NCBI GenBank assembly: GCA_038065115.1
Contig: JBBTRS010000007.1
Coordinates: 1 to 35,431, forward strand
Origin: Patescibacteria group bacterium
GTDB taxonomy: Bacteria; Patescibacteriota; Minisyncoccia; UBA6257; MFKM01
Length of the DNA: 35,431 nucleotides
Direction: 5' to 3'
The notes beneath the pieces are model-generated. The model ran no database searches. It saw only the letters and a list, made by a program, of their open reading frames with translations, and was not told the DNA's origin. The translations under genes and the position numbers were made by a program. Below, piece after piece: positions 2,631 to 29,454 of this stretch (position 1 is the stretch's first letter; each line of letters begins with the position of its first letter).

Positions 2631-2700
2631 TGGTGGGTGAGGGAGGGATCGAACCTCCGACCCCTGCCTGCCGGCAGGCAGGTCTGTCTTATCAGGACAG
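2631..2700 (-). pseudogene. Duplicated 3' portion of tRNA-Ile(GAT) carrying a 20-bp palindrome in the variable loop
   Basis: Repeats the anticodon arm, T arm and CCA of the adjacent tRNA. CCTGCCTGCCGGCAGGCAGG is inserted at 2663-2682. Confidence 0.8.
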
Positions 2701-12082: not shown

Positions 12083-12646
12083 TTATTTAGCGCCGGCGCC
12101 TCCAGCCGCAGTTTCTACTTTCTTGCCGGTTTTTTTCTTAATAACCTCGCCCTGATATCTAATGCCTTTTCCTTTATAGGGTTCTGGTTTTTTAAGTTCC
12201 CTGATTTCAGCCGCGACCTTGCCCACCAAAATCTTATTGAATCCTAAAACCTTGATAATGTTTTTTGAAATTTCAGTTTTGATTCCGACCGGCACCGGAA
12301 ACCGGATAAGATGAGAAAAACCCAATTTAAATACCAAACATTCACCATCTTTTTCAACCCTGAAACCGATACCTTCAATTTCCAAAACCTTAACAAATCC
12401 CTGCGAAAGGCCAATAACGGCATTATTCGCCAATGCCCTTGTTGTTCCCCAATTAGTCCGGCTTTGCCGATTTTTTTTCTCAATCGTGAAAGATAAAGTT
12501 TTATCGGAAACAGAAGCCAAAACCCCGGGCAAAATTTTTAAATTAAGAATTTCGCCTTTGGCGTTTTGAAAATCCAGACAGCCATCTTTGATTTCAACCT
12601 TTATCCCTTCGGGGATGATAATTATTTTTTTACCAATTTTGGACAT
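12083..12646 (-). CDS. rplF: 50S ribosomal protein L6
   Basis: MSKIGKK start (ATG at 12646) and [11 protein letters not shown]. Confidence 0.96.
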
Positions 12647-13793: not shown

Positions 13794-14080
13794 TTTTTGC
13801 AATATCTAAATTTAATATTTTTTTCAAAGCGATGCCCGACTCTGGTTGCTTGCTTACAACTGGGACAAACAAGCATCAAATTAGAAACATCTATCGGCCG
13901 GCTAATTTTAACGACTTCGCCTTTTTCGCCTTGTTTCTTGGGACGCATATGTTTTTTGTAGAGATTCAGTCCGTCGGCAATTAATTTCCGCGATTTCAAA
14001 TCAACCTTAAGCACCTTGCCGGTTTTGCCCCGATCCTTGCCTTTCAATATTTTTACTACGTCGTTTTTATGTATTTTCAT
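13775..14080 (-). CDS. rplX: 50S ribosomal protein L24
   Basis: GKDRGKTGKV KOW motif and C-terminal CxxC...CxxC. Confidence 0.96.
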   Translation of the reverse strand: MKIHKNDVVKILKGKDRGKTGKVLKVDLKSRKLIADGLNLYKKHMRPKKQGEKGEVVKISRPIDVSNLMLVCPSCKQATRVGHRFEKNIKFRYCKKCQSRI

Positions 14081-14139
14081 ATTTATATATTCACCTTTTC
14101 ATCTGCCAGTAAACAGATAAAAATTCATATTCCGTAAAA

Positions 14140-14508
14140 TTAGACAACTTCCTCGGCCATAGTTATGATTTTTTCAAAACCTTTTTCTTTTAATTCTTGG
14201 GGAATTGGACCGAAAATTCTGGTTCCCCGAGGCTCTTTCTTGTCGTCAATCAAGATAGCGGCGTTTTCGTCAAAACGGATGTAAGAACCATCAAGCCGCC
14301 GCAATGGCTGGCATTGTCTGGCGATAACCGCTTTCACCACATCCTTCTTTTTCACTCCCTTTCTGGGTTCGGCCGTTCTTACTGAAGCGATAATGATATC
14401 GCCAACCCTGGCATAGCGCCTTCCGGTCCCGCCTAAAACCCTGAAGCATCGAATAATCTTTGCTCCGGAATTGTCAGCTACTTTTAATATTGTTCGTTCT
14501 TGAATCAT
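14140..14508 (-). CDS. rplN: 50S ribosomal protein L14
   Basis: [26 protein letters not shown] and GTRIFGP. Confidence 0.98.
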
Positions 14509-14509
14509 A

Positions 14510-14645
14510 CCCAGTAGTAGAAACTCGATAATTATTTGTAATAATTTAACCTTTTATTGATAATCATTGTTTTGTTTGATTGCCAGGCTTTTAGTTTAAA
14601 CTCTTTGTTCGCCTTTGGCGAACTAATCGAGTTTTCACTACTGGG
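14510..14645. mobile_element. MITE-like inverted-repeat element at the rplN start codon
   Basis: Ends CCCAGTAGTAGAAACTCGAT and ATCGAGTTTTCACTACTGGG. Flanked by CATA on both sides (TATG on the coding strand). Same ends as 24388-24534. Confidence 0.75.
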
Positions 14646-14691
14646 CATATATTTTAATATCTAAAGAAATAAAAACTGAAGTTTGTTCATT

Positions 14692-14934
14692 CTACTTTTT
14701 ATCCGATATTTTTTCAACTATTCTGTGTCGCTTCTCTTTTGACAGCGGCTGGCATTCCTCAATCACGACTTCTTCTCCTGTTTTGTATTCATTCTTTTCG
14801 TCATGAGCTTTAAATCTTTTGGTTACTTTATAATATTTCCGATACTTCGGGTGCAACTTCAATCTCGTCACGGCCACTATCCGTGTTTTGGTCATTTTGT
14901 CTGAAACTATTTTTCCTTTTAATCTTCTGGCCAT
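14692..14934 (-). CDS. rpsQ: 30S ribosomal protein S17
   Basis: G.IVSDKMTKT, HPKY.KY, AHDE and PLSKEK. Confidence 0.96.
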   Translation of the reverse strand: MARRLKGKIVSDKMTKTRIVAVTRLKLHPKYRKYYKVTKRFKAHDEKNEYKTGEEVVIEECQPLSKEKRHRIVEKISDKK

Positions 14935-14940
14935 AAATTT

Positions 14941-14975
14941 TAGAATTTAGAATCTAGAAAATAGAATTTAGAATT
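14941..14975. repeat. Heptamer tandem array (TAGAATY)x5 just upstream of rpsQ
   Basis: tagaatt tagaatc tagaaaa tagaatt tagaatt. Confidence 0.8.
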
Positions 14976-14998
14976 TTGTTTATTCTACTTTCCATTTT

Positions 14999-15202
14999 CT
15001 ACTTTTTATTTTCTTTATTATTTATAATAGTTAAAATTCGGGCAATTGTTTTTTTTACCTCTTGGATTTCTCTAATATTCTTGACTTTGCCGGCGGCCAA
15101 ATCAAATTTCAAAATCCTAAAACGCTCCTGGTGCCCAACCAAATCTTTCTGAAGTTCGGCAACCGATTTATTTTTGGCTTCTTGAAAATTCTTTTTTTTC
15201 AT
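14999..15202 (-). CDS. rpmC: 50S ribosomal protein L29
   Basis: LKFDLAAGKVKN.REI..VKKTIARILT and its position in the operon. Confidence 0.93.
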   Translation of the reverse strand: MKKKNFQEAKNKSVAELQKDLVGHQERFRILKFDLAAGKVKNIREIQEVKKTIARILTIINNKENKK

Positions 15203-15230
15203 ATTATATACTTATTTTTTGTCCTGGCAA

Positions 15231-15644
15231 TTATTCTTTACTGACTATCCTTGATCTTAATGGCAATTTTCGACTCCCCATATTCAAGGCGTGCTGGGCA
15301 ACGGCCGTTTCCACGCCGTCCACTTCAAATATAATCCGGCCGGGTTTAACGGGAAAAACATAATGATCAACTTCTCCTTTGCCACCGCCGAGGGTAACTT
15401 CCGGAGGCATTTTTGTAATCGGCTTGTCAGGAAAAACTCTAATCCAAATTCTGCCGCGATTTTTTAGAGAATGACTGATGGTTTTGCGAACGGCTTCAAT
15501 CTGGCGGCCGGTTATCCAATACGGAGTCAAGGCCTGTATTCCAAAACTGCCGAAAGCTAATTTAGTGCCTCTGGTTTCCGTTAACCTTTTCCGTGAACGG
15601 CCTTTATGCCATTTTCGATGTTTTACTTTTTTTGGTTCAAACAT
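15231..15644 (-). CDS. rplP: 50S ribosomal protein L16
   Basis: PKKVKHRK, WIRVFPDKPIT and GGGKG. Confidence 0.97.
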   Translation of the reverse strand: MFEPKKVKHRKWHKGRSRKRLTETRGTKLAFGSFGIQALTPYWITGRQIEAVRKTISHSLKNRGRIWIRVFPDKPITKMPPEVTLGGGKGEVDHYVFPVKPGRIIFEVDGVETAVAQHALNMGSRKLPLRSRIVSKE

Positions 15645-15655
15645 GGTTTTGAAAT

Positions 15656-16351
15656 TTAATTTATTCTACTCTCTCGGCTTTTTATTTTCTCGCCAAAGAC
15701 GTCTCCTTTATAAATCCAGGTTTTGACGCCAATAGTTCCAAAAGTCGTGAAAGCGGTGGCTTCGCCGTAATCAATATCAGCCCTGAGGTTGGTTAACGGC
15801 ATACGGCCTTTAGCCAGCCATTCTTTTCTGGCAATTTCCGCTCCATCCAACCGACCCGCCAAACGAATCTTGGCCCCTTTAATTGTTTTATTTTGCGAAA
15901 TAGCGTCAAGGTGTTGCTTCATAACTCTTCGGAAACGCAATCTTCTTTCCAGATCAAAAGCGATATTTTGAGCCTCCACTTGAGCCGAGGTTTCGCTTCG
16001 TTTCAATTCTTCAATGTCAAGATTTAATTCCGGAATTTCCTTATTTTTTTTCCGACTCCGAAAAACCGTCATTACCATTTCAATCGCTTTCTTGAGATCT
16101 TCAACGCCTTTTCCCCCGCGGCCGATAATCAATCCCGGACGGGCGGCTTTAATAAAAATCTTGCAAGAATTTCCCGTTCGCTCAATTTCAATACTGGCTA
16201 TTCCGGCCTTGATGATTCTTTTTAAAATTTCTTGTCTTATCAAATAATCTTCTTCCAAAAGATAATTCAAGCTTCTTTTCAGAAACCAACGGTTCTGCCA
16301 ATTTTTAATTATGCCTAATCTAAAAGAATCCGGTCTGATTTTTCGGGCCAT
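15656..16351 (-). CDS. rpsC: 30S ribosomal protein S3
   Basis: ARPGLIIGRGG and GRLDGAEIAR..W...GRMPLTNLRADIDY. Confidence 0.97.
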   Translation of the reverse strand: MARKIRPDSFRLGIIKNWQNRWFLKRSLNYLLEEDYLIRQEILKRIIKAGIASIEIERTGNSCKIFIKAARPGLIIGRGGKGVEDLKKAIEMVMTVFRSRKKNKEIPELNLDIEELKRSETSAQVEAQNIAFDLERRLRFRRVMKQHLDAISQNKTIKGAKIRLAGRLDGAEIARKEWLAKGRMPLTNLRADIDYGEATAFTTFGTIGVKTWIYKGDVFGEKIKSRESRIN

Positions 16352-16422
16352 ATTGTAAATTAAAATTTAAAAATTATTATTTTTTGGTTAATGCTTGAAT
16401 TTTTCATTTTGATTTTTGTTGC

Positions 16423-16968
16423 TTAAATTGCTTTTCTTCTAAAAATTCGTTTAAAGGATTCAAATTTCTTTGGTTTCATTTCTCTGGTTTTTTCTTCTTT
16501 CGCCGGTTTCAAACCCTCTATTTTGTTTATTTCGTCTTTTCTTTTCGCCGATTTTTCCTGCTTGCCGGCAGGCGCGGCTTTTTTAAGTTTTTTCGGTTTG
16601 GGAATAAATTTAAATCTCAACGGAATTTTATTTTCTGATTCCGCTAAAACCATGATAATGTGGCAGCATTTTTTTTCAATCAGGCTGGATGAGCCGCGGG
16701 CTCTGGTCCGAAAACGTTTTTGACGAGGTCCTATATCCACTCTGATATTTTTTACCAAAAGCTGGTCGGTGTCTATTTTTTGATTATTTTTAGCGTTAGC
16801 CATAGCCGACCGCAATAATTTTAAAATTGGTTTGCTGGCCCGATTTGGCAAAATCGAAAGCTGGGCCTCCGCTTCGTTGGCCGGTAAACCCTTGATTAAA
16901 TCAGCCACTAATCTTGTTTTTCGCGGACTGATTTTTAAATATTTTAATTTTGCTGTTTGAGTTTTCAT
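16423..16968 (-). CDS. rplV: 50S ribosomal protein L22 with ~70-aa Lys-rich C-terminal extension
   Basis: ISPRKTRLVADLIKG, SAMANAKNN and RARG. The tail ends FRRKAI. Confidence 0.95.
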   Translation of the reverse strand: MKTQTAKLKYLKISPRKTRLVADLIKGLPANEAEAQLSILPNRASKPILKLLRSAMANAKNNQKIDTDQLLVKNIRVDIGPRQKRFRTRARGSSSLIEKKCCHIIMVLAESENKIPLRFKFIPKPKKLKKAAPAGKQEKSAKRKDEINKIEGLKPAKEEKTREMKPKKFESFKRIFRRKAI

Positions 16969-16985
16969 AATTACCGCTTAAATGC

Positions 16986-17312
16986 TTATTTGCCGGCTGG
17001 CGCCTTGGCCTGCCCCTGCTGGGTCGTTTCTTTCTTTTGCTCTAATTCTCTTTGGATTTTGCCGCCATGCTTAACAAATTTTCTGGTCAGCGAAAATTCA
17101 CCCAACCGATGACCAACCATTTCATCGGAAACTCTTACTGTTATGAAATTTTTACCATTATAAACGCCAAAAGTATAGCCTACCATTTCCGGTGAAATTT
17201 CAGAGTCCCTGGCCCAGGTTTTAATCATCGTCGGATCGCCCGGCTTTAACTTAGCTATTTTTTGTAAAAGCTTCTGATAAACATACGGGCCTTTTTTGCT
17301 ACTTCTTGACAT
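16986..17312 (-). CDS. rpsS: 30S ribosomal protein S19
   Basis: [11 protein letters not shown] and [13 protein letters not shown]. Confidence 0.97.
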
Positions 17313-17354
17313 ATTTTTTTTAGAATCTAATTTAGAAAAATAAAATCCTTAATT

Positions 17355-18092
17355 CTATTTTCTTCGTTTTATTATTAATTTATTTGACCATTTCTTTTTA
17401 TTTCGTGTTCTGTGGCCACCGGTGATTTTGCCCCATTTGGTTTTGGGCCGGCGGGTGCCTCGGGGCTGGCGGCCTTCACCGCCGCCGTAAGGATGATCGC
17501 GGGGATTCATAGCCGTACCGCGAACAGTTGGTCTGATTCCCAGCCAACGCGAACGACCGGCTTTCCCAATTACTTCTAAATTATGCTCGGGGTAAGAAAC
17601 CCGGCCAAGAGAAGCGTAGCCGTTCCATAAAACTTTCCTGATTTCTCCGGAAGCTAATTTTAAATGAGTGTAGCCGTCTTCATTAGCCAAAACCTGAACA
17701 GCTAAGCCCGCGGAACGGGCTAACTGGCCGCCCTTACCCGGAAACAATTCAATGTTATAAACGAAACTGCCTATTGGAATACGATTCAATAAAGTGCGAT
17801 TTCCCGGCTTTAAGGGAGCGTCCACCGAAGTGATAATTTCATCACCCGTTTTTATTTCATGCGAAGCTAAAATATAACGCCGTTCGCCGTCCTTGTAAAC
17901 AACCTTGGCGATTAAACCGCTGCGGTAAGGATCGTATTCTATTGATTCAACCCGGCCGGTAATATTAAATTTATTTTGCTTAAAATCAACCAGGCGGTAC
18001 AACTGTTTGTGTCCGCCGCCTTGGTGTCGAACCGTTATCCTCCCTTGGGAATTTCTTCCTGACGACTTTTTTAATTTTATGATGTGTTTCAT
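17355..18092 (-). CDS. rplB: 50S ribosomal protein L2 (N-terminally short)
   Basis: [26 protein letters not shown] and [17 protein letters not shown]. Confidence 0.97.
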
Positions 18093-18102
18093 AAGCTACG
18101 AT

Positions 18103-18378
18103 TTATTTTGGCAAAACATCAATTGTTTGTCCTTTTTTTATAGTAACGATGGCCCTTTTAGAAGATGGGCGGCGACTGACACCGCGACCAAATTTTTTCA
18201 TTTTTCCCCTACGGTTTATGACATTGACCGATTCCACGTTGACTTTATATATGGATTCCACTCCTTTCTTGATTTCACAGGTGTTAGCCTGGCGATCAAC
18301 CAAAAAAGCGTATTTATTGATTTTACTCAATTCCATCGTCTTCTCGCTAATTATTGGTTTTTTGATTGTCATTTTCAT
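18103..18378 (-). CDS. rplW: 50S ribosomal protein L23
   Basis: IKKPIISEK, KY.F.V and KRAIVT. Confidence 0.95.
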   Translation of the reverse strand: MKMTIKKPIISEKTMELSKINKYAFLVDRQANTCEIKKGVESIYKVNVESVNVINRRGKMKKFGRGVSRRPSSKRAIVTIKKGQTIDVLPK

Positions 18379-19004
18379 ACCTTGTAGTGCTTGATTATTG
18401 TTTCAATGGCTTCCTGGTCTAAAATAATCTTTTGATATTTTAACAAATCGTAAACATTAAGCGACTCCGGGCTTAAAGCGCCGGCCTTGGCTAAATTACG
18501 AGCCGCCAAATAAATATTTTTATTTTCTTTAGCCGGAATCAACAAAAGGCTTTCTTTCGGCGAAATAAAATTTTTTATTAAATTAGCTAAATTTTTGGTT
18601 TTGCGGTCTTCTAATTTAAGAGTGTCTACGATTTTTATTTCCTGTTCATTTAGTTTTTTTGAAAAAATGCCAAAAATCGCCAATTGTTTCATTTTTTTGT
18701 TAATCTTTCTGGAAAAATTCCTTTCTTTCAGCGGACCAAAAGTGACGCCGCCACCTTTCCACAAAGGCGAGCGAATAGAACCGTGCCGCGCTCGGCCGGT
18801 GCCTTTTTGCCGCCACGGTTTTTTACCGCCACCCCTGACTTCGCCCCGGTCTTTGGTGTCGGCTAAAACTTTTCTCCGATTAGCCATCTGAACGGTCAAC
18901 GCTTGATGAACTAAATCCGGATTCCATTTAACGTCAAAAATAGCGTCGGGTAAATCTATCGTTCCGGTTTTTTCGTTTTTTTGATTAAATAAATCTGTTT
19001 TCAT
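18375..19004 (-). CDS. rplD: 50S ribosomal protein L4
   Basis: GGGKKPWRQKGTGRARHGSIRSPLWKGGG. Confidence 0.98.
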   Translation of the reverse strand: MKTDLFNQKNEKTGTIDLPDAIFDVKWNPDLVHQALTVQMANRRKVLADTKDRGEVRGGGKKPWRQKGTGRARHGSIRSPLWKGGGVTFGPLKERNFSRKINKKMKQLAIFGIFSKKLNEQEIKIVDTLKLEDRKTKNLANLIKNFISPKESLLLIPAKENKNIYLAARNLAKAGALSPESLNVYDLLKYQKIILDQEAIETIIKHYKV

Positions 19005-19014
19005 GAATTTAAAA

Positions 19015-19461
19015 CTATGATTTTTCGCCAGAAATTGATTTATTATTAACGGGGTAAATTAAAATTTTAGTGTTTTTATAGCCCGGCACGGCTCCTTTGA
19101 GCATTAAAATAGTATTTTCTTTATCCAAAGCAACCACTCTAAGATTTTTTACGGTTTTTTGGCGGCCACCGGTTTGACCGGCCATTTTCCGGCCTTTTAA
19201 AACTCGTTGCGGCGCGGTTGGCCCGCTTGAACCCGGCGCCCGCAGGCGGTGTTTTTGCCCGTGGCTTTTGGGCCCGCCGTGAAAACCCCAGCGTTTAACC
19301 ACGCCTTGAAATCCTATGCCCCGGGTCACTCCGGTTATTTTAACCAACTCGCCTTCGGTGAAAACCGAAACATCGGCAACTTTAATAGGAGTAACCGCGA
19401 CGACTTTCCCGTCTTTGAAAATCTGACTCATTTTTAATTTTGTACCGGAAATTGGTATCAT
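19015..19461 (-). CDS. rplC: 50S ribosomal protein L3 (internally shortened, 148 aa)
   Basis: GTKLKMSQIF...VTPI, GFQGVVKRWGF.GGPKSHG...RAPGS and KGAVPG. Confidence 0.93.
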   Translation of the reverse strand: MIPISGTKLKMSQIFKDGKVVAVTPIKVADVSVFTEGELVKITGVTRGIGFQGVVKRWGFHGGPKSHGQKHRLRAPGSSGPTAPQRVLKGRKMAGQTGGRQKTVKNLRVVALDKENTILMLKGAVPGYKNTKILIYPVNNKSISGEKS

Positions 19462-19494
19462 ATAAACTTATTTTATTTGTTGCAATTTATTATA

Positions 19495-19533
19495 AATTAA
19501 AACTGCCTAGGTTTAGCCTCGGCAGTTTTAATT
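19495..19533 (-). terminator. Long hairpin, possible terminator, between rpsJ and rplC
   Basis: AATTAAAACTGCC...GGCAGTTTTAATT, a 13-bp perfect outer stem. Confidence 0.5.
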
Positions 19534-19568
19534 ATTTTTTGGCTAAATCTGCTTTCTTTCGCTAGATA

Positions 19569-19907
19569 TTACATCATTTTTATTTCAACATCAACCCCCG
19601 CCGGCAAGTTGAGGTTTGACAAAGACTCAATGATTTTTTGACTGGGATTAACGATATCTATCAAGCGTTTATGAACCCACATTTCAAATTGCTCCCGCGC
19701 GTCCTTATGGACAAAAGTTGAACGATTAACGGTATAACGGTGAAATTCAGTCGGTAAAGGGACTGGGCCAATCAATTCACCACCTTGACGCTCAACCACC
19801 TCAATGATCTGCCGACAAGAATTATCAATCAATTTATGATCATAGGCTTTGATTTTTAATCTTAATTTTTCCTTGTCTTCTTTTTTGTCGGAAATTTTTT
19901 TTGCCAT
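19569..19907 (-). CDS. rpsJ: 30S ribosomal protein S10
   Basis: LRLKIKAYDH, GPVPLPT, KDAREQFE and LPAGVDVEIK. Start ATG at 19907 is likely. Confidence 0.96.
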   Translation of the reverse strand: MAKKISDKKEDKEKLRLKIKAYDHKLIDNSCRQIIEVVERQGGELIGPVPLPTEFHRYTVNRSTFVHKDAREQFEMWVHKRLIDIVNPSQKIIESLSNLNLPAGVDVEIKMM

Positions 19908-19991
19908 AATTGTTGAAATTTTCAGGCTCATTTTGTAGCGAAGAAAATTTCACTACAGCCGCGAATTCCGCTTACCCTGTCAAAACAGCTT

Positions 19992-21191
19992 TTATTTTAT
20001 TATCTTGGTTACGGCGCCGGCGCCTACGGTCTTTCCTCCTTCTCTGATAGCGAAACGCTGTTTTTCTTCTAAAGCTATCGGAGCGAGAAGTTTAATAGAA
20101 AGATTAACGGTATCGCCTGGCATTACCATTTCCATTCCTTGGGGAAGAGTCGCTTCACCGGTAATATCGCAAGTTCTAATATAAAACTGGGGTTTGTAGC
20201 CGGTAAAAAACGGGGTGTGCCGGCCGCCTTCCTCTTTGCTTAAAATGTAAACACTGGCTTCAAATTCGGTATGCGGCGTAACACTGCCGGTTTTGGCAAT
20301 AACTTGACCGCGTTCCACGTCTTCTTTTTTCAAACCGCGAAGCAAAATACCAACATTTTCACCAGCCTGTCCTTCGTCCAAAATCTTATTGAACATTTCA
20401 ATGCCGGTTACCGTCACTTTGCTGGTCGGATGCAAACCGATTAATTCAACTTCTTCGTTGACCTTGACCATTCCTCGTTCAATTCTGCCGGTTACCACTG
20501 TTCCCCGTCCTTCAATGCTGAAAATATCTTCAACTGGCAAAAGAAACGGTTTGTCAATTTCTCTAACCGGATCGGGAATGTATTCGTCAAGCGCTTTGGC
20601 TAATTCCAAAATCGGTTTACACCATTCGTCGTCAATAGTTTTCGCTTCTAAGGCTTTGAGAGCGGAACCGCGAATAACCGGAATTTCATCGCCCGGGAAA
20701 TCGTATTTTTTCAAAAGCTCTCTGACTTCCGATTCCACCAAATCAATTAATTCTTTATCGTCTACCTGATCAACTTTATTCAAAAAGACTACCATTGTCG
20801 GAACACCGACCTGACGAGCCAAAAGAATATGCTCCCGAGTTTGAGGCATCGGGCCGTCAGCCGCGGAAACCGCCAAAATCGCTCCGTCCATTTGGGCGGA
20901 ACCGGTAATCATGTTTTTGATATAGTCAGCATGCCCCGGACAATCAATGTGGGCGTAGTGTCTTTTTTCGGTTTCGTATTCAGAATGATGAATGGCAATC
21001 GTAATACCCCGAGCTTTTTCTTCGGGAGCATTGTCAATTTGATCAACCGATTCGGCTTTCTGGATAAGACCCTTCAACTGAAGGACGTGCATGATAGCCG
21101 CCGTTAAAGTCGTTTTGCCGTGGTCAATATGACCGATGGTGCCGACATTAACATGGGGTTTGTTTCTAATAAATTTTGCTTTTTCAGCCAT
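19992..21191 (-). CDS. tuf: Elongation factor Tu
   Basis: [21 protein letters not shown] and NKVD. Start ATG at 21191. Confidence 0.98.
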
Positions 21192-21279
21192 ATTGTTTTT
21201 TTGAAAATTTTTCGCCAAAAGCAAATCGGCTTTTGGTTAAAAAATTCTAGATTTTTAATAATGTAATAACGACCAAGTC

Positions 21280-21308
21280 AGTTTATAGTAAAAAAAATTT
21301 TGTGTCAA
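21280..21308 (-). promoter_or_regulatory. Sigma70-type internal promoter for tuf
   Basis: TTGACA-17 nt-TAAACT on the minus strand. Confidence 0.6.
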
Positions 21309-21310
21309 CA

Positions 21311-23401
21311 CTATTGCTTCTTCCCCTCGGCAATCTGCATAGCAATATTATTGGGCACTTCTTCGTAACTGCTAAACTCCATGGTGAAACTGCCACGGCC
21401 TTGAGTCATTGATCTCAAATTGGTGGCGTAACCGAACATTTCCGACAAAGGCACTTTCGCGTCAATCACATTGGTCCCCAGTCTTTCCGTCAAAGCTTCA
21501 ATTTTGCCTCGGCGGGAATTAAGATCGCCGTTTACCTCGCCCAGAAAATCCGGCGGGGCAATCACCTGAACTTTCATCATCGGCTCCAACAAAATCGTCT
21601 TGGCTCTTTTAGCGGCCTCTTGAAAAGCGATAGAGCCGGCAATTTTAAAAGCCGCTTCCGAAGAATCAACTTCGTGAAAAGAACCGTCATAAAGAGAAAC
21701 TTGAACGTCAACGAAAGGATAACCGGCTAAAACCCCCCTGTCCATGGCTTCTTTGACTCCTTTTTCCACGGCTGGAATAAATTCCGCGGGGATAGTGCCT
21801 CCCTTGATGGCTTTAACAAATTCAAAACCCTTGCCTCGTTCTAAGGGTTCTATCTTCAACCAAACATGGCCGTATTGACCCCGACCGCCGGATTGACGAA
21901 CATATTTGCCTTCGGCTTCGGCCGTTCCCACCACTGTTTCTTTGTAAGCCACTTGAGGCCGGCCGACATTGGCTTCAACACCGAATTCCCGCCTCATTCG
22001 ATCAACGATAATTTCCAAGTGAAGTTCGCCCATTCCCCAAATAAGAGTCTCGCCGGTGTCCGGATCGCCAATCACTCTAAAAGTCGGGTCTTCTTCTTGA
22101 AGCCGATGCAAAGCCAAAGACATTTTTTCCTGGTCAGCTTTAGTTTTTGGCTCAATCCGAATAGAAATGACCGGTTCCGGAAAAACAATTTTTTCTAAGA
22201 TTATAGGCTGATTGGGATCGCAAAGCGTATCTCCAGTGGTGGTATTTTTTAAACCCACGAAAGCGCCAAGATCGCCGGCGTAAATTTCCTCTACTTCTTC
22301 CCGGTGATTAGCGTGCATTCTTAAAATCCGGCCGATTCTTTCCTGATTATTTTTACTAACGTTAAGAATATAGCTTCCTTTTTTCAAAATTCCGGAATAA
22401 ACCCGAAAATAAGTCAAAGAGCCGACAAAAGGATCGGCTGCTATTTTGAAAGCCAAAGCCGCGAAAGGCTGGTCGTCTTTTGGCATCCTTTCTTCTTCTA
22501 TTTGATTTTCCGGATTAATTCCTTTCACCGCCGGCAAATCAAGCGGCGAAGGCAAATAATCAATAACCGCGTCTAAAAGAAACTGAACGCCTTTATTTTT
22601 AAGAGCGCTCCCGCAAAGGATAGGAATCAACTCCCCTTTTAAACAAGCCTTTCTTAGGGCTTTTTGTAAATCCTCAAAGCTAATTTCATGCCCTTCTAAA
22701 TAACGATGTAGTAAGGCATCGTCGGTTTCGGCGATCAATTCCACTAATTTTCCTCTTTTTTCTTCGGCTATCTTTTTAAAATCAGCTGGAATTTCTTTAG
22801 AAATTATTTCCTGTCCGTGTTCGCCTTCAAAATAAAAAGCTTGCTGTTTTAACAAATCAATAACGCCTTCAAATTTTTCTTCCAGGCCAATGGGCCACTG
22901 AAGCACCGCTAGTTTCGGGTGCAAACGATCTTTGATTGATTGCAATACTTTTTCAAAATCCGCTCCCATTCGATCAAGCTTATTGACGAAACAAATTCGC
23001 GGCACTTTATATTTATCAGCCTGCCGCCAAACCGTTTCTGATTGCGGTTCCACGCCGGCCACCCCGTCAAAAACAACTACCCCGCCGTCAAGCACCCGAA
23101 GCGAACGCTGAACTTCAACGGTAAAATCAATATGGCCGGGAGTATCAATGATATTAACCCTATACTCTGCGCCACCGTAAGTCGGTTTCCAATAGCAAGT
23201 TGTGGCCGCCGCCGTTATCGTAATTCCCCTTTCCCGTTCTTGTTCCATCCAATCCATAACGGTATCGCCGGTGTGAACCTCGCCGATTTTATGGGAAATT
23301 CCGGTGTAGAAAAGAATCCGTTCGGAGACGGTTGTTTTTCCGGCATCAATATGGGCAATAATGCCGATATCGCGATATTTTTCTAACGGGTATTGACGCA
23401 T
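21311..23401 (-). CDS. fusA: Elongation factor G
   Basis: [22 protein letters not shown] and GMGELHLEI. Confidence 0.98.
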
Positions 23402-23405
23402 AAAT

Positions 23406-23440
23406 TAGAATCTAGAATCTAGAATTTAGAATTTAGAATT
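23406..23440. repeat. Heptamer tandem array (TAGAATY)x5 just upstream of fusA
   Basis: tagaatc tagaatc tagaatt tagaatt tagaatt. Confidence 0.85.
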
Positions 23441-23484
23441 TAGGAGATTTTAAAAAACCTAAATACTGAATTCCAATCCCTTTC

Positions 23485-23958
23485 TTACCTCGCAAAGTGA
23501 GCAAACGCCCTATTGGCTTCCGCTATTCTATGCATATCCTGCTTCTTCTTGATAGCCGCTCCTTCGTTTTTGGAAGCGGCGATGATTTCTTCCGCCAAAT
23601 TTTCCGCCATGGTTTTTCCTTTCCGCGATCTGGCTGATTTAATAATCCAATGACCGGCCAAAAAGAATTTTCTTTCCGGTCTTACTTCCATCGGTACCTG
23701 GTAATTAGCCCCTCCAACTCTCCGGGAAACCACCGCTACGATCGGGCTGACATTTTCCAGGGCTTTTTCAAAAACCTTTATTGGTTCCTGCTGGGTTATT
23801 TTTTGAATATTCTTCATAGCCTGATAAAATATTTTTTCGGCCAAAGATTTCTTGCCTTCTATCATCAAATAATTGATAAACCGGCCGGCGGTTAAATTTT
23901 TGTATTCAGTATCGGGTTGGCGTAATTTTCTATTTTTATAAATTTGTTTTTTGCGCAT
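23485..23958 (-). CDS. rpsG: 30S ribosomal protein S7
   Basis: SRRVGGANYQVP and AEANRAFAHF. Confidence 0.98.
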   Translation of the reverse strand: MRKKQIYKNRKLRQPDTEYKNLTAGRFINYLMIEGKKSLAEKIFYQAMKNIQKITQQEPIKVFEKALENVSPIVAVVSRRVGGANYQVPMEVRPERKFFLAGHWIIKSARSRKGKTMAENLAEEIIAASKNEGAAIKKKQDMHRIAEANRAFAHFAR

Positions 23959-23966
23959 ATATCAAT

Positions 23967-24386
23967 TTAAGACTGTTTTTTGGGTCTTTTAGCTCCGTAT
24001 TTTGACCTTTGTTGCTTCCGGCCATCCACTCCCGTGGTATCCAAAATACCGCGAACAATGTGGTATCTCACGCCAGGCAAATCTTTTACCCGGCCGCCAC
24101 GAACCAAAACCACCGAGTGTTCCTGAAGCTGGTGCCCTTCCCCGGGAATATAAGCGGTTACTTCCATTCCGTTGCTTAACCGCACCCGAGCCACTTTTCT
24201 TAAAGCGGAATTCGGTTTTTTGGGGGTAGTGGTAAAAACTTTCAAACAAACTCCCCGCTTAAAAGGCGAGATTGATAAAGTGGGACGATTTTTTAAATTA
24301 TTGAAATAACGCCCCAAGGCCGGGGTTTTCTTTTTTCTAACCGATTTCTTTCTTCCTTTTTTAATTAATTGATGAATCGTGGGCAT
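23967..24386 (-). CDS. rpsL: 30S ribosomal protein S12
   Basis: [22 protein letters not shown] and [13 protein letters not shown]. Confidence 0.98.
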
Positions 24387-24387
24387 A

Positions 24388-24534
24388 CCCAGTAGTAGAA
24401 ACTCGATTTAATTAAATTCTTTTTTTTGATGACCTTTGCCAATAAATAAGCTTGGATTGGTTTTCTAAATTATACCCCATAGGAAAACTTTATGAATTTA
24501 ATCTAAAAAAAGCAATCGAGTTTTCACTACTGGG
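24388..24534. mobile_element. MITE-like inverted-repeat element at the rpsL start codon
   Basis: Same ends as the rplN element (CCCAGTAGTAGAAACTCGAT and ATCGAGTTTTCACTACTGGG). CAT (ATG) on both sides, unrelated interior. Confidence 0.75.
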
Positions 24535-24562
24535 CATTGATCTTTAAAATTGATATTCAATA

Positions 24563-24592
24563 AAAATACCAAAAATGTGGAGTGGTTGTCAA
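24563..24592 (-). promoter_or_regulatory. Sigma70-type promoter for the str operon
   Basis: TTGACA-18 nt-TATTTT with TG extension on the minus strand, upstream of the element. Confidence 0.5.
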
Positions 24593-24643
24593 CTCTGCTG
24601 AAAATCGGAATTTTGTTTTAAACTAATACGGCGTAAAACGAGA

Positions 24644-26092
24644 CTAACGCTTGCCTATCCAGAGCGATATTCTTTTTAACCAAAAAAATGGATTTTTCAA
24701 AATAATCAATATTATTCCAAGCGGATCATTCAATAAAATTTCCCAAACCATCTTGTATTTCTGAAATCTTAATAATTTTCTTGTTTCTAAAAATAATTCG
24801 GCGAATTTTTCTTTGTCTATTTTTTCGTCCAACAAGAGAGGGTTGTGGCAGGAATAAAGAGACAGCTTGGTAAAATCCATTTCCTCGCTGACTTTTTTTT
24901 GATTTCTGGCAATTTCCCAAAATTCCCCTCCGGGGTAAGGCGTAGCGACGAACAAAAAAAGATAAGCGCCTTTTTTGACCGCTTTTTTAATAAACTCGTA
25001 AGTTTCTTTCATGTCTTCCAGGGTTTCCTCGGGAATGCCCATCATCAGACTTCCGAAAACTTTTATTTTATGACGCAAAGAAATTTCAATGGCTTTTAAA
25101 TTAATTTCCGGGCTGGCCGTTGGTCCTTTCAGCCACTGAAGAACTTTTTTAGAGCCGCTTTCAAAACCAAATTGAAGAATTTTTATATTAAGTTTGCGGC
25201 AAATCTCGCCCATTTCGTCATCAATGGTGTTGGCTCTCGCCTGGGCGGTAGTTGTTATCCCTTCCAATAAATTTTCCTTTTCGCAGAGTCTGGCAATTTC
25301 CCTCAAACGATTTCTGTCCATAGTAAAAAGATCGTCGCAAAATAATAAATGCTTAATTTTAAAATTTTCTTTGAGATATTTGATATGCGACACTATGTAT
25401 TGAGGCGAGTGAAATCTGGTTAAACCGCTTCCCCAAAAAGCGGAAGTGGCGCAAAAGCGACAACGGAAAGGACAACCGCGAGAAGTTAAAATCCAACCTC
25501 GTCTAGCGAGCTTTCCGATTCCAATAATCGGTTTCGGCTCAAAATATCTTTTATCCGCGTATTCATAATCCAAGGGAGGAATTTCGTCTAGATTTTTTAC
25601 GAACTCCCTTTGAACGGTTATTTCTATTTTTCCATTCTCGTTCCAAAAAGCGATTCCTTTGATTTTTCTTAAATCCGCCGGATTAAATTTTTGTTTTTCT
25701 TGGTATAGGCAAACAAGCTCTTTAAATGTCTCTTCGCCTTCTCCGACAACGCCAACATCAAAGCAAGTTCTTAAAGAATTTGGCAATAAAGAAATATGGA
25801 CTCCGCCTATTATGACGGGAATACGGAGAGCTTCTTTTATGGCTTTAGCGCATTCACTCGCTTCTTCGTAATGAATAGTCATAGCGCTAATTCCCGCTAA
25901 ATCCGGTTTATATTCCCGAACCTCCGCCATAACGTCTCCGAAGTTTTTATCTATAATCTTGGTGCTTCTGAATCCGATTTTTTTCTCTAAATAAGTGGCA
26001 AGATAAAGAAGCCCGAAAGGGGGTTGTCGGTCGCCTTCATTCTGTAAAGTAATTAAGGCTAATTTTGCCTCATTTTTTTTAACCATTTTCAT
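24644..26092 (-). CDS. B12-binding domain radical SAM protein
   Basis: PPFGLLYLATYL, GGVH and GEGE in the cobalamin-binding domain. SRGCPFRCRFC (CxxxCxxC), DDLF and GFESGS. Confidence 0.93.
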   Translation of the reverse strand: MKMVKKNEAKLALITLQNEGDRQPPFGLLYLATYLEKKIGFRSTKIIDKNFGDVMAEVREYKPDLAGISAMTIHYEEASECAKAIKEALRIPVIIGGVHISLLPNSLRTCFDVGVVGEGEETFKELVCLYQEKQKFNPADLRKIKGIAFWNENGKIEITVQREFVKNLDEIPPLDYEYADKRYFEPKPIIGIGKLARRGWILTSRGCPFRCRFCATSAFWGSGLTRFHSPQYIVSHIKYLKENFKIKHLLFCDDLFTMDRNRLREIARLCEKENLLEGITTTAQARANTIDDEMGEICRKLNIKILQFGFESGSKKVLQWLKGPTASPEINLKAIEISLRHKIKVFGSLMMGIPEETLEDMKETYEFIKKAVKKGAYLFLFVATPYPGGEFWEIARNQKKVSEEMDFTKLSLYSCHNPLLLDEKIDKEKFAELFLETRKLLRFQKYKMVWEILLNDPLGIILIILKNPFFWLKRISLWIGKR

Positions 26093-28620: not shown

Positions 28621-29454
28621 ATGCTTTCCGGCGCTTCAAAAAATTCAACGTTAACCGCCAACAAAACTAAATGGTTTGATTCGCACGCTCATCTTAATTT
28701 TAAGGCTTTTAATAACGACTATCCGGAAATTATCAAAAAATGCCTTGATGAAAATCTTTGGCTGATCAATGCCGGCTCAAAATACGACTCTAGCGAGAAA
28801 GCGGTGGATATCGCCGAAAATTGCGAAAAAGGGGTTTGGGCGGCTGTCGGACTCCATCCCCTTGATATTGAAAACGAGGTCTTTGATTACCAAAAATATT
28901 TAACTCTAGCCAAAAAATCCGACAAAGTGGCGGCGATCGGCGAAACCGGCTTGGATTACTACAGAATTAAGAATAATGAATTAAGAATTAAGAATCTCCA
29001 AAAGGAAGTTTTTAAAAAACAAATTGAATTGGCACTGGCATTGGATAAACCGTTGATAATTCACTGTCGCGATGCTCACGACGATGTTATTAGTATTCTT
29101 AATTCTTACTTCTTGATTCATAATTCTAAATTAAAAGGCGTTATTCACTGTTTTACCGGAAATCAGAAGCAAGCAAAACAATACCTAGAAATGGGGATTT
29201 TCCTCGGCTTCACCGGCATCATTACCTATTCTCCCGCTTACGATGAAATTATCAAAGACCTGCCGCTTGAAAAAATCCTGATTGAAACAGATTGTCCTTA
29301 TTTAACGCCTGTTCCCCGCCGCGGCCAAAGAAACGAACCGCTTTATGTTAAATTTGTAGCCCAAAAAATAGCCGCAATTCGCAATCTTTCTTTAGAAGAA
29401 GTGGCAAGACAAACCGCCGACAACGCCTTGAATTTGTTCCAGATTTTGTTATAA
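28621..29454 (+). CDS. tatD: TatD family DNase
   Basis: DSHAHL, GLHP, IGETGLDY, IIHCRDA, GVIHCF and ETDCPYL.P...RGQRNEP. Confidence 0.95.
   Translation: MLSGASKNSTLTANKTKWFDSHAHLNFKAFNNDYPEIIKKCLDENLWLINAGSKYDSSEKAVDIAENCEKGVWAAVGLHPLDIENEVFDYQKYLTLAKKSDKVAAIGETGLDYYRIKNNELRIKNLQKEVFKKQIELALALDKPLIIHCRDAHDDVISILNSYFLIHNSKLKGVIHCFTGNQKQAKQYLEMGIFLGFTGIITYSPAYDEIIKDLPLEKILIETDCPYLTPVPRRGQRNEPLYVKFVAQKIAAIRNLSLEEVARQTADNALNLFQILL

What the first reader, a model, noticed from the sequence alone, without database searches (positions are those of the whole stretch)
14506..24537. Same-ended inverted-repeat elements precisely at the start codons of rpsL and rplN, duplicating the AUG
Seen: 14510-14645 (136 bp) and 24388-24534 (147 bp) share both ~20-bp ends exactly but have no recognisable internal similarity. 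On the mRNA strand both read AUG-CCCAGUAGUGAAAACUCGAUU...AUCGAGUUUCUACUACUGGGU-AUG(gene). The 23-nt arms pair with two G.U wobbles and one mismatch, and the stem sequesters both the upstream AUG and part of the true AUG. Precise removal of the element plus one AUG restores a normal start. Established: rpsL and rplN are the first genes of the classical str and spc operons. Inference: either a non-autonomous element that targets start codons so essential genes stay intact, or a domesticated shared translational-control leader (or an excised/bypassed RNA hairpin). I do not recognise it as a described family.
Basis: partly seen in the sequence, partly recalled or inferred. Interest (0 to 1): 0.88.

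Follow-up and report, generated by a model that had tools for sequence, protein, structure and literature searches.

The report
Mobile hairpin elements parked on start codons
Two ribosomal-protein genes of a tiny groundwater bacterium carry, exactly on their start codons, copies of a small mobile DNA hairpin that duplicates the ATG when it inserts and whose longer relatives encode a miniature GIY-YIG nuclease.

Summary
Window 14510-14645 and 24388-24534 share identical 20-nt inverted ends and sit between a duplicated ATG and the rplN and rpsL reading frames.

They are mobile. The 590-kb genome holds 16 copies. Congeners hold 6, 1, 1 and 0. Relatives have precise empty sites at rpsL and rplN. 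Copies away from ATG carry other 3-5 bp target duplications (CAAG, CAGG, TTGA, TCAA).

Of 93 distinct copies from Patescibacteria genomes, 47 abut a start codon in one orientation.

Longer copies (288-323 bp) with the same kind of ends enclose an 85-90-aa GIY-YIG nuclease gene that fills the space between the arms. In 23 of 51 such elements from metagenomes the element's 3' end abuts a co-directional gene start; none abuts a divergent start.

The hosts lack the anti-Shine-Dalgarno sequence, and TATG is their usual start context, which probably makes these sites tolerable.

The closest described system is Ssn (GIY-YIG) with its NTS hairpins. The published Ssn motif does not match.

No RNA data were available, so how rpsL and rplN are still translated remains inferred. 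No cognate nuclease gene was found in this genome.

The parts
14510..14645 (-). Hairpin element (subfamily a, 136 bp) inserted at the rplN start codon
   Evidence: Empty site in congener G001. A contig of run X1 joins 14509 to 14728 with 37 other letters in place of the element (table 5c).
14626..14645 (-). 5' arm, CCCAGTAGTGAAAACTCGAT
   Evidence: Pairing statistics over 84 copies.
14510..14529 (-). 3' arm, ATCGAGTTTCTACTACTGGG
14646..14649 (-). Upstream copy of the TATG target duplication (holds the duplicated ATG)
   Evidence: The TATG..TATG pattern recurs.
14506..14509 (-). Downstream copy of the TATG duplication; the ATG at 14506-14508 is the rplN start
14140..14508 (-). rplN (ribosomal protein L14, 122 aa)
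14689..14717 (-). Promoter-like site, TTGAAA-17-TAGAAT, upstream of the first ATG
   Evidence: consensus match only
24388..24534 (-). Hairpin element (subfamily b, 147 bp) inserted at the rpsL start codon
   Evidence: Empty site in congener G003 with the same TTGACA promoter context.
24515..24534 (-). 5' arm, identical to that of the rplN copy
24388..24407 (-). 3' arm, identical to that of the rplN copy
24535..24537 (-). Upstream duplicated ATG (left flank AATG)
24384..24387 (-). TATG; the ATG at 24384-24386 is the rpsL start
23967..24386 (-). rpsL (ribosomal protein S12, 139 aa)
24563..24592 (-). Promoter-like site, TTGACA-18-TATTTT with TG, conserved in congeners

Best explanation
The two sequences are non-autonomous copies (MITE-like) of a mobile foldback element that circulates in anti-Shine-Dalgarno-less Patescibacteria.

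Shown: each copy is a 20-bp terminal inverted repeat around a variable interior, and it inserts with a 3-5 bp (mostly 4 bp) target duplication. The favoured target is TATG, which is the commonest start-codon context in this genome. Insertion at a start codon duplicates the ATG and leaves the reading frame intact. Longer relatives of 288-323 bp with the same type of ends carry one gene, an 85-90-aa single-domain GIY-YIG nuclease that fits exactly between the arms. Where these abut a gene start they always point the same way as the downstream gene.

Inferred: the nuclease recognises the folded hairpin, probably in single-stranded DNA as the Ssn nucleases do, and mobilises both the full and the short copies in trans.

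Inferred: sitting on a start codon lets the promoter-less element borrow the host gene's transcription and initiation site.

Inferred: rpsL and rplN stay expressed for three possible reasons. These bacteria need no upstream ribosome-binding site. Ribosomes starting at the duplicated upstream AUG, which keeps the native leader, read through the 5' arm and melt the 20-23 bp stem that half-covers the true AUG. RNase III may also cut the stem.
For: Mobility:
- This genome holds 16 copies. With the 3'-arm pattern the congeners hold 6, 1, 1 and 0.
- No insertion site was seen to be shared between this genome and the same-genus genomes examined.
- Empty sites exist at rpsL and rplN in congeners, and a contig of run X1 joins 14509 to 14728 with 37 other letters in place of the element.
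- Copies off ATG carry TSDs such as CAAG, CAGG, TTGA, TCAA, TTTA and AGGG.
- The family is patchy: 3 of 401 class genomes.

Start codons:
- 47 of 93 distinct copies have the 3' end 0-2 nt from an ATG that opens an ORF of at least 60 aa.
- In G000, 11 of 14 (T)ATG-flanked copies sit directly on a start. Only 245 of 874 tolerable TATG sites are starts, giving binomial p = 1.3e-4.

Stem:
- Positions 1-20 pair in at least 90% of 84 copies, and position 21 onward pairs at about 25%.
- There is covariation: position 4 is A-T 47, G-C 24, C-G 6; position 20 is T-A 56, C-G 21.

Nuclease link:
- L067 is a 311-bp copy with an 88-aa ORF.
- 22 of 28 GIY-YIG loci in element-bearing genomes have TIRs abutting the ORF, and 6 of them have window-type arms.
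- 55 of 76 complete metagenome loci encoding close relatives (61-93% identity) have such TIRs. All 55 show the GTAGT (or GTAGA) core or its ACTAC complement at the ends.
- Pfam GIY-YIG scores E 1e-15 to 1e-18 in 6 of 6 proteins. The catalytic-type residues are conserved in 24 of 24 aligned proteins.
- 23 of 51 distinct ORF-bearing elements abut a co-directional gene ATG; 0 abut a divergent one.

Host context:
- The 16S 3' end lacks CCTCC in G000 and in 17 of 17 sequences from 16 related or element-bearing genomes.
- GGAGG lies upstream of only 5.6% of 482 starts, and T occupies position -1 in 50%.
- Passages of PMC9297842 report the anti-SD motif in only 48% of Parcubacteria.
- An RNase III gene is present.
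Against: - No GIY-YIG gene with these arms was found in G000, which is 95.7% complete. Its four small paralogues are only 38-53% identical to the arm-associated clade and carry other ends.
- GIY-YIG enzymes are hydrolytic nucleases (recalled). No transposition chemistry is known for them, and how a 4-bp duplication would arise is unexplained.
- The interiors of the window copies show no significant similarity to ORF-bearing elements (z at most 1.5), so descent by deletion is not shown.
- The census is biased.
- 44 of 93 copies are not on start codons.
- Nothing is known about the RNA. No RNA run was listed, and neither a conserved sigma-70-like promoter nor a terminator asymmetry explains the orientation bias.
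Confidence: 0.72

Rival explanations
1. An ordinary DDE-transposase MITE (for example IS1380-, IS5- or IS701-like) whose autonomous partner lies outside the assemblies. On this reading the GIY-YIG genes between the arms are passengers or independent invaders.
For: Terminal inverted repeats plus a 4-bp target duplication are the classic signature of DDE transposition (recalled). G000 has no cognate GIY-YIG gene. Repeats and IS copies often fail to assemble in MAGs, and Logan contigs break at the arms.
Against: PF13701 and PF01609 found nothing in 5 of 5 element-bearing genomes, including one with about 31 copies. Other transposase families were not searched. Every 'solo' arm examined turned out to be a small element. 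The nuclease ORF fits the arms to within about 10 nt at both ends in 55 of 76 metagenome loci. Arm types change together with the nuclease clade. Compensatory changes keep the stem, which protein recognition of two separate ends does not require.
Confidence: 0.13
2. A host-serving Ssn/NTS-type system. The hairpins are recognition sites for a resident single-stranded-DNA nuclease that modulates uptake or recombination of DNA around important genes, and are not primarily selfish transposons.
For: In PMC11893778 (abstract and sections 6, 7, 8, 10, 12 read), the 94-aa GIY-YIG SsnA cuts ssDNA beside NTS hairpins. These hairpins occur in hundreds of copies, cluster around particular genes and flank ssnA. 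Here too the repeats sit beside highly expressed genes, and small GIY-YIG genes are multi-copy.
Against: The published SRM search motif gives 0 hits in the 16 elements, 1 in the genome (about what shuffles give) and 0 at 19 GIY-YIG loci. Copies carry target duplications and empty sites, and turn over between congeners. The family was found in 3 of 401 class genomes.
Confidence: 0.08
3. A functional RNA element: a shared translational-control leader for translation genes, or a hairpin that is excised, cleaved off to give a leaderless mRNA, or bypassed by the ribosome from the first AUG to the second.
For: The stem half-sequesters the true AUG. Orientation is strongly sense: 47 against 2 by arm signature, and the two exceptions have a gene-sense interior. 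In G000, 5 of the 11 copies directly on a start are on translation genes (rpsL, rplN, rpsB, rplI, hpf) and a sixth is on a release-factor-like ORF; a further copy lies 16 nt upstream of pth. The interior is A-rich on the sense strand in 79% of start-codon copies. Leaderless-type promoters are common in this genome. An RNase III gene is present.
Against: The element is not conserved at orthologous loci in congeners. Interiors differ completely between genomes. No Rfam family matches. The same arms occur at non-genic sites and around a nuclease gene. Covariation is equally explained by a DNA hairpin.
Confidence: 0.05

Closest known systems
Ssn nucleases with NTS/SRM (dRS3) hairpin repeats (Chenal et al. 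2025, PMC11893778; abstract and sections 6, 7, 8, 10, 12, 17 read)
   Same: Both have a single-domain GIY-YIG protein of about 90 aa. Its gene is flanked on both sides by inverted repeats that can fold, and the same repeats are scattered in many copies outside genes. The authors note that the layout looks like an insertion sequence.
   Different: Here the two flanks pair with each other as one 20-bp stem around the gene; they are not two local hairpins. The published SRM motif does not match. Copies carry 3-5 bp target duplications and have empty sites, and half sit on start codons in one orientation. I did not find any of this in the sections read. Hosts are Patescibacteria, a word absent from that paper's main text. 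Its supplementary host lists could not be seen.
Bacterial MITEs such as Correia/NEMIS elements of Neisseria, ERIC and Nezha (review PMC3184786, passages read; Correia details recalled)
   Same: Size of 100-160 bp, terminal inverted repeats, target duplications, RNA-level hairpins inside transcripts, and often no known partner in the same genome.
   Different: The target is TATG or the start codon instead of TA. The partner candidate is a 90-aa nuclease rather than a transposase. The stem is maintained by compensatory changes.
REP/BIME elements, REPINs with RAYT, and IS200/IS605 (recalled; cited in the Ssn paper's discussion)
   Same: Hairpin-forming repeats tied to a small HUH or nuclease-type protein that acts on folded single-stranded DNA. 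Insertion is strand-biased.
   Different: Those systems make no target duplication and use a tyrosine HUH enzyme. Here there is a real, variable duplication and a GIY-YIG fold.
Neisseria REP2 and Borrelia upstream repeats (review PMC3184786, passage read)
   Same: Repeats lie immediately upstream of genes and include an ATG start codon.
   Different: Those repeats supply a promoter, a ribosome-binding site and the ATG, and are not inverted-repeat insertions with duplications.
Rickettsia palindromic elements, and the mitochondrial 'byp' / T4 gene 60 bypass elements (recalled)
   Same: Mobile hairpins tolerated inside essential coding regions. The byp elements have matched codons on both sides.
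   Different: RPEs are translated in frame and byps are hopped over. Here the insert lies before the ORF, stops occur in frame, and no bypass is needed or shown.

Membership tests
Bacterial MITE | Small size (under about 400 bp) with no transposase gene | tested here: met
   Window copies are 136 and 147 bp. The 16 G000 copies are 78-156 bp.
Bacterial MITE | Terminal inverted repeats | tested here: met
   20-bp arms, at least 90% paired at every position except 10-11, in 84 copies.
Bacterial MITE | Target-site duplication | tested here: met
   TATG in 26 of 47 start-codon copies. CAAG, CAGG, TTGA, TCAA, TTTA, AGGG and others elsewhere.
Bacterial MITE | Empty and filled sites in close relatives | tested here: met
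   rpsL is empty in G003 and rplN is empty in G001. Copy numbers are 15, 6, 1, 1 and 0 in five congeners.
Bacterial MITE | An autonomous element with the same ends that encodes a transposase | tested here: inconclusive
   Copies with the same ends exist and encode a GIY-YIG nuclease, which is not a known transposase. None was found in G000.
Ssn / SRM system (cd10448) | Single-domain GIY-YIG protein of about 94 aa | tested here: met
   85-90 aa. PF01541 at E 1e-15 to 1e-18 in 6 of 6 proteins.
Ssn / SRM system (cd10448) | Gene flanked 5' and 3' by hairpin-forming repeats that also occur elsewhere in the genome | tested here: met
   22 of 28 loci and 55 of 76 loci. The architecture differs: the two flanks pair with each other.
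Ssn / SRM system (cd10448) | Repeats fit the published SRM degenerate motif | tested here: not met
   0 hits in the 16 elements, 1 in G000 (shuffles give 0-2), and 0 at 19 GIY-YIG loci.
Ssn / SRM system (cd10448) | CDD assignment to cd10448, and clustering with SsnA | not testable with these tools
   No CDD library and no SsnA sequence were on hand. The nearest solved structures are UPF0213 proteins at E 1e-3.
Ssn / SRM system (cd10448) | Cuts single-stranded DNA beside the hairpin, but not dsDNA or RNA | not testable with these tools
   Needs a biochemical assay.
DDE-transposase IS families with 4-bp duplications (IS1380, IS4/IS5) | A cognate DDE transposase in element-bearing genomes | tested here: not met
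   PF13701 and PF01609 gave 0 of 5 genomes. Other families (rve, DDE_3, IS701) were not searched.
IS200/IS605 and REP-RAYT | No target duplication; a Y1 HUH transposase | tested here: not met
   Variable direct repeats flank the copies. PF01797 was not searched.
Any Rfam RNA family | A covariance-model match | tested here: not met
   cmscan at E up to 10 over window 14300-24800 gave 10 weak matches, none on either element.

The most novel reading that the evidence does not exclude
The roughly 300-bp units (two 20-bp arms plus an 85-90-aa GIY-YIG gene) are autonomous transposable elements. That would make them the smallest known, and they would use a nuclease rather than a transposase. On this reading they move through a folded single-stranded hairpin intermediate. 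They aim at the TATG of start codons in bacteria that have lost Shine-Dalgarno initiation, so that the host's promoter and first AUG drive the nuclease gene, and then the host gene, by termination-reinitiation. The short copies on rpsL and rplN would be their hitch-hiking derivatives.
Probability: 0.35. Interest if true: 0.9.

Novelty: new variant of a known kind. Interest (0 to 1): 0.78.

Why it matters
This would give the newly described Ssn-type GIY-YIG/hairpin pairs direct genomic evidence of transposition: duplications, empty sites and turnover between species. It would also point to a very small self-contained mobile unit that could be tested at the bench.

It shows a mobile element whose preferred landing place is the start codon of essential, highly expressed genes. 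That is only conceivable where translation does not depend on an upstream ribosome-binding site. The elements therefore become natural probes of how anti-SD-less Patescibacteria choose start codons and cope with a 20-bp stem at the AUG.

For annotation, the elements create false upstream ATGs and short ORFs, and they break assemblies at their arms.

Tried and rejected
- Rfam: nothing on the elements.
- Internal outward promoter: -10-like hexamers just inside the 3' arm are no more frequent than at the 5' side (18% against 19% of 84). Best sigma-70 scores are equal on both strands, and terminator-like sites number 1 against 0 of 84.
- Deletion origin of the window copies: no interior similarity to ORF-bearing elements (z at most 1.5).
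- Mini-ORF ending just before the 3' arm: seen in 13 of 45 start-codon copies against 2 antisense. Shuffles average 6.1 with a maximum of 13, and most cases are related G000 copies, so this is only a hint.
- Autonomous copy by arm pairing: all unpaired arms in five genomes were short elements with a diverged partner arm.
- DDE transposases PF13701 and PF01609: none in 5 genomes.
- Phage or viral carriers: 8 IMG/VR matches, all without a 5' arm, so chance.
- The first relatives pattern used too short a gap and missed G000's own copies. It was replaced.
- RNA evidence: no RNA holder was listed. The DNA contigs laid cannot show transcripts.
- NCBIfam gave no family above its cut-off. PDB sequence search gave only weak UPF0213 hits.
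- The published SRM motif did not match.
- Literature: seven full-text searches returned no paper describing start-codon-targeting MITEs or TIR-bounded GIY-YIG elements in Patescibacteria.

Full report
**Observation**

Read on the - strand, both loci have the form ATG-CCCAGTAGTGAAAACTCGAT...ATCGAGTTTCTACTACTGGG-T-ATG, followed by the gene.
- The elements occupy 14510-14645 (136 bp) and 24388-24534 (147 bp).
- The ORFs that follow are 14140-14508 and 23967-24386. Pfam names them ribosomal protein L14 (E 2e-49) and S12 (E 2e-39).
- The arm pattern has 4 matches in the window against 0.00 expected.
- The arms form a 20-bp stem with one G.U and one A.C. The flanking AUG/UAU extends it by three pairs, so the true AUG is half buried.
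- Predicted fold energies are -42.3 and -39.5 kcal/mol (z -7.8 and -5.0).
- Promoter-like sites precede both first ATGs.

The one amendment is that the two interiors belong to two subfamilies of one family and are not wholly unrelated.

**It is a repeat family with the hallmarks of transposition**

The window is contig C7 of a 589,828-bp, 37-contig genome. A genome-wide search finds 16 copies of 78-156 bp.
- 11 sit directly on the ATG of an ORF of 114-347 aa: secF, rpsL, rplN, a PGM/PMM-like ORF, gap, rpsB, hpf, a release-factor-like ORF, rplI and two others.
- 2 stand in tandem in front of another element that itself abuts a gene ATG.
- 1 lies 16 nt before pth, flanked by CAAG..CAAG.
- 1 is inverted at CATA..CATA, away from any start.
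- 1 is a 78-nt short form.

With the 3'-arm pattern, five genomes of the genus hold 15, 6, 1, 1 and 0 copies. No insertion site was seen to be shared between this genome and the same-genus genomes examined. The rpsL site in G003 and the rplN site in G001 are precisely empty and keep the same upstream sequence. A contig of run X1 joins 14509 to 14728 with 37 other letters in place of the element.

About 277 chance hits were expected in that scan, so hits were filtered by presence of the partner arm. Direct repeats of 3-5 bp flank the copies:
- TATG in 26 of the 47 start-codon copies.
- TTGA, TCAA, TTTA, TAAA, CAGG, CGTG, TGGA, AGGG and others elsewhere.

In an even sample of the class the exact arm occurs in 3 of 401 genomes. 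The patchy spread, near-identical arms across families, turnover between congeners and variable duplications all argue for a mobile element and against a conserved host leader.

**Start-codon association and orientation**

Of the 93 copies, 47 have their 3' end 0-2 nt from an ATG that opens an ORF of at least 60 aa. In G000, TATG occurs 2,937 times. Of these, 245 are at predicted starts and 629 are in non-coding DNA away from starts. Finding 11 of 14 (T)ATG-flanked copies directly on starts therefore exceeds the 28% expected if only tolerable TATG sites mattered (p = 1.3e-4).

By the arm signature (GA in the 5' arm, AG in the 3' arm), 47 start-codon copies are sense and 2 are antisense. Both exceptions have an interior that is sense to the gene. 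Copies between co-directional genes are also mostly sense, 14 against 4.

At TTGA/TCAA-type sites both orientations occur. The target consensus is weak: T at the first duplicated position in 66-74% and never G, with a purine at the fourth position.

**The stem is maintained**

In 84 uninterrupted copies, positions 1-20 pair in at least 90% of copies, apart from the fixed G.T/A.C at positions 10-11. Pairing falls to about 25% from position 21. Several positions covary: position 4 is A-T 47, G-C 24, C-G 6, and position 20 is T-A 56, C-G 21. My search regexes partly impose positions 5-11.

Interiors are unrelated between genomes. They are A-rich on the sense strand in 79% of start-codon copies and 74% of other copies. 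An A[AG]GGTC motif lies 40-49 nt from the 3' end in 19 copies on the sense strand against 1 on the antisense strand.

**The partner**

No long element bounded by the arms was found at first. All apparent solo arms in five genomes, one of which holds about 31 copies, were short elements. Two DDE transposase families are absent from five genomes, and IMG/VR holds only chance matches.

The three longest copies then gave the lead.
- L067 (311 bp) encloses an intact 88-aa ORF.
- L134 holds a rearranged version of the same gene.
- The third, L023 (296 bp), has no such ORF.
- Pfam calls the protein and five relatives GIY-YIG catalytic domain, E 1e-15 to 1e-18.

Searching element-bearing genomes with the L067 protein found relatives in 20 of 22. 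At 22 of 28 loci inspected the ORF is bracketed by 12-24-nt inverted repeats. These start about 10 nt before its ATG and end a few nt after its stop.
- 6 loci have window-type arms. For example L200 reads TAAG|CCCAGTAGTGAAAACTCAAT-9 nt-ATG...stop-ATTGAGTTTCTACTACTGGG|TAAA.
- 2 loci have a close arm variant.
- The rest have other arm types that go with more distant nucleases.

These elements measure 288-323 bp. L220 sits at an ORF that I read as secA, and L202 at one that I read as dnaX. Both names are my reading of the N-termini and are not from a search. Both are flanked by TATG..TATG.

A metagenome scan with the L200 protein found 410 relatives, of which the best 80 were kept.
- 55 of 76 complete loci have repeats abutting the ORF, and all 55 show the GTAGT (or GTAGA) core or its ACTAC complement at the ends.
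- Among 51 distinct elements, 23 abut a co-directional gene ATG at their 3' end and none abuts a divergent start.
- Twenty-four aligned nucleases keep the Tyr, Tyr-x-Gly, Arg, Glu-His, Glu and Arg-Glu positions.

G000 itself has four small GIY-YIG genes. They carry other ends or lie beside tRNA genes, and they are only 38-53% identical to the arm-associated clade. The window copies therefore have no visible cognate in this assembly.

**Host context**

- The 16S 3' end of G000 reads ...GGTGGATAATTTAATT, without CCTCC. The same holds for 17 of 17 sequences from 16 of 26 related or element-bearing genomes in which the 16S end is assembled.
- Only 5.6% of 482 predicted starts have GGAGG upstream.
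- Matches to TATAAT (at most one mismatch) peak with the hexamer ending 7 nt before the ATG, which is a leaderless signature.
- T precedes the ATG in 50% of genes.
- Passages of PMC9297842 report the anti-SD motif in only 48% of Parcubacteria.

In such hosts, separating the AUG from its upstream sequence costs no ribosome-binding site.

**How it most likely works**

Shown:
- A foldback element with duplications that regenerate the ATG.
- ORF-bearing relatives that always point with the downstream gene.

Inferred:
- The GIY-YIG protein recognises the folded arms. This explains why pairing, not just sequence, is conserved, and it parallels SsnA, which binds a hairpin in single-stranded DNA and cuts beside it on one strand only (PMC11893778 sections 8 and 12).
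- The promoter-less element gains expression by landing on a start codon in sense. In L200 the in-frame stop would fall 2 nt before the nuclease ATG if an ATG abutted the arm. In L220, which is flanked by TATG, the frame opened by the duplicated host ATG ends in TGA 2 nt before the nuclease ATG. This is my reading of the sequences printed, so it rests on two cases only.
- For the short copies on rpsL and rplN, the upstream AUG keeps the native leader and opens a short frame: MPSSENSI... of 15 codons at rpsL and 38 at rplN. That frame runs through the 5' arm, and translating it would melt the stem and expose the true AUG.
- RNase III, whose gene is present, could alternatively cut the 20-23 bp stem.

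None of this could be tested, because no RNA run was listed.

**Comparison with what is known**

No Rfam family matches. The nearest described system is the Ssn family with its NTS/SRM hairpins. It shares the single-domain GIY-YIG protein, repeats on both sides of the gene, and many scattered copies, and its authors remark on the IS-like layout.

Membership is not established:
- The published SRM motif fails.
- cd10448 could not be checked.
- The nearest solved structures are UPF0213 proteins at E 1e-3.

The new features here are the long-range stem around the gene, explicit duplications and empty sites, the start-codon preference and its orientation, and the host group.

Correia elements, ERIC, REP/RAYT, RPEs and bypass elements are analogies recalled from memory, or from passages of PMC3184786. 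Seven literature searches found no description of this family. Supplements were closed.

**Verdict**

- The 'mobile element that spares the gene by duplicating its ATG' reading is supported.
- The 'domesticated leader' reading is not supported.
- The link to a miniature GIY-YIG element is new and well supported by association, but its mechanism is unproven.

Noticed in passing
window 2663-2682; also 15 further exact copies in G000: A 20-nt G+C palindrome, CCTGCCTGCCGGCAGGCAGG, occurs 16 times exactly in the genome (29 times at up to 3 mismatches). Five copies are inserted in the 5' arm of the hairpin elements right after GTAGT, which turns the stem into a three-way junction. The window copy lies inside a partial duplicate of the 3' half of tRNA-Ile(GAT), just downstream of the intact gene at 2716-2790.
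   Followed up: partly
G000 C37:14714-14857 (not in the window): A second hairpin family, with arms CCCGGTTAACTCAACTCCGA / TCGGAGTTGAGTTAACTGGG, stands in tandem directly after a window-type copy. It too is flanked by TATG..TATG in front of a gene. The same arm type brackets GIY-YIG genes in L201 and L204.
   Followed up: partly
G000 C6:3244-3453 and C31:17112-17312; L213 and L228: Small GIY-YIG genes lie beside tRNA genes, with the first 13-35 nt of the tRNA duplicated on the other side of the nuclease gene. This looks like integration into tRNA genes.
   Followed up: no
G000 C23 (16S 3' end) and genome-wide start contexts: The 16S rRNA lacks the CCUCC anti-Shine-Dalgarno tail. Only about 6% of genes have GGAGG upstream. 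TATAAT-like matches (at most one mismatch) peak with the hexamer ending 7 nt before ATG, which suggests many leaderless mRNAs.
   Followed up: partly
window 14940-14987 and 23405-23452: There are runs of TAGAAT-like units (TTAGAATTTAGAATCTAGAA...) in two intergenic spacers of the ribosomal-protein cluster; the two runs are 83% alike. A related stretch lies at 29095-29139.
   Followed up: no
G000 C18 (ORF after the element at 23660-23808) and C34 (ORF after 12379-12527): The PGM/PMM-like ORF starts at domain II and has no domain I. The release-factor-like ORF matches the PCRF domain only from profile position 99. Either these are naturally short proteins or the start codons used are internal.
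   Followed up: no
window 13800-25200, as seen in public contigs: Logan contigs of three runs (X1, X3, X9) end or begin at 14508-14534, the 3' arm. The repeat therefore breaks short-read assemblies at this locus.
   Followed up: no
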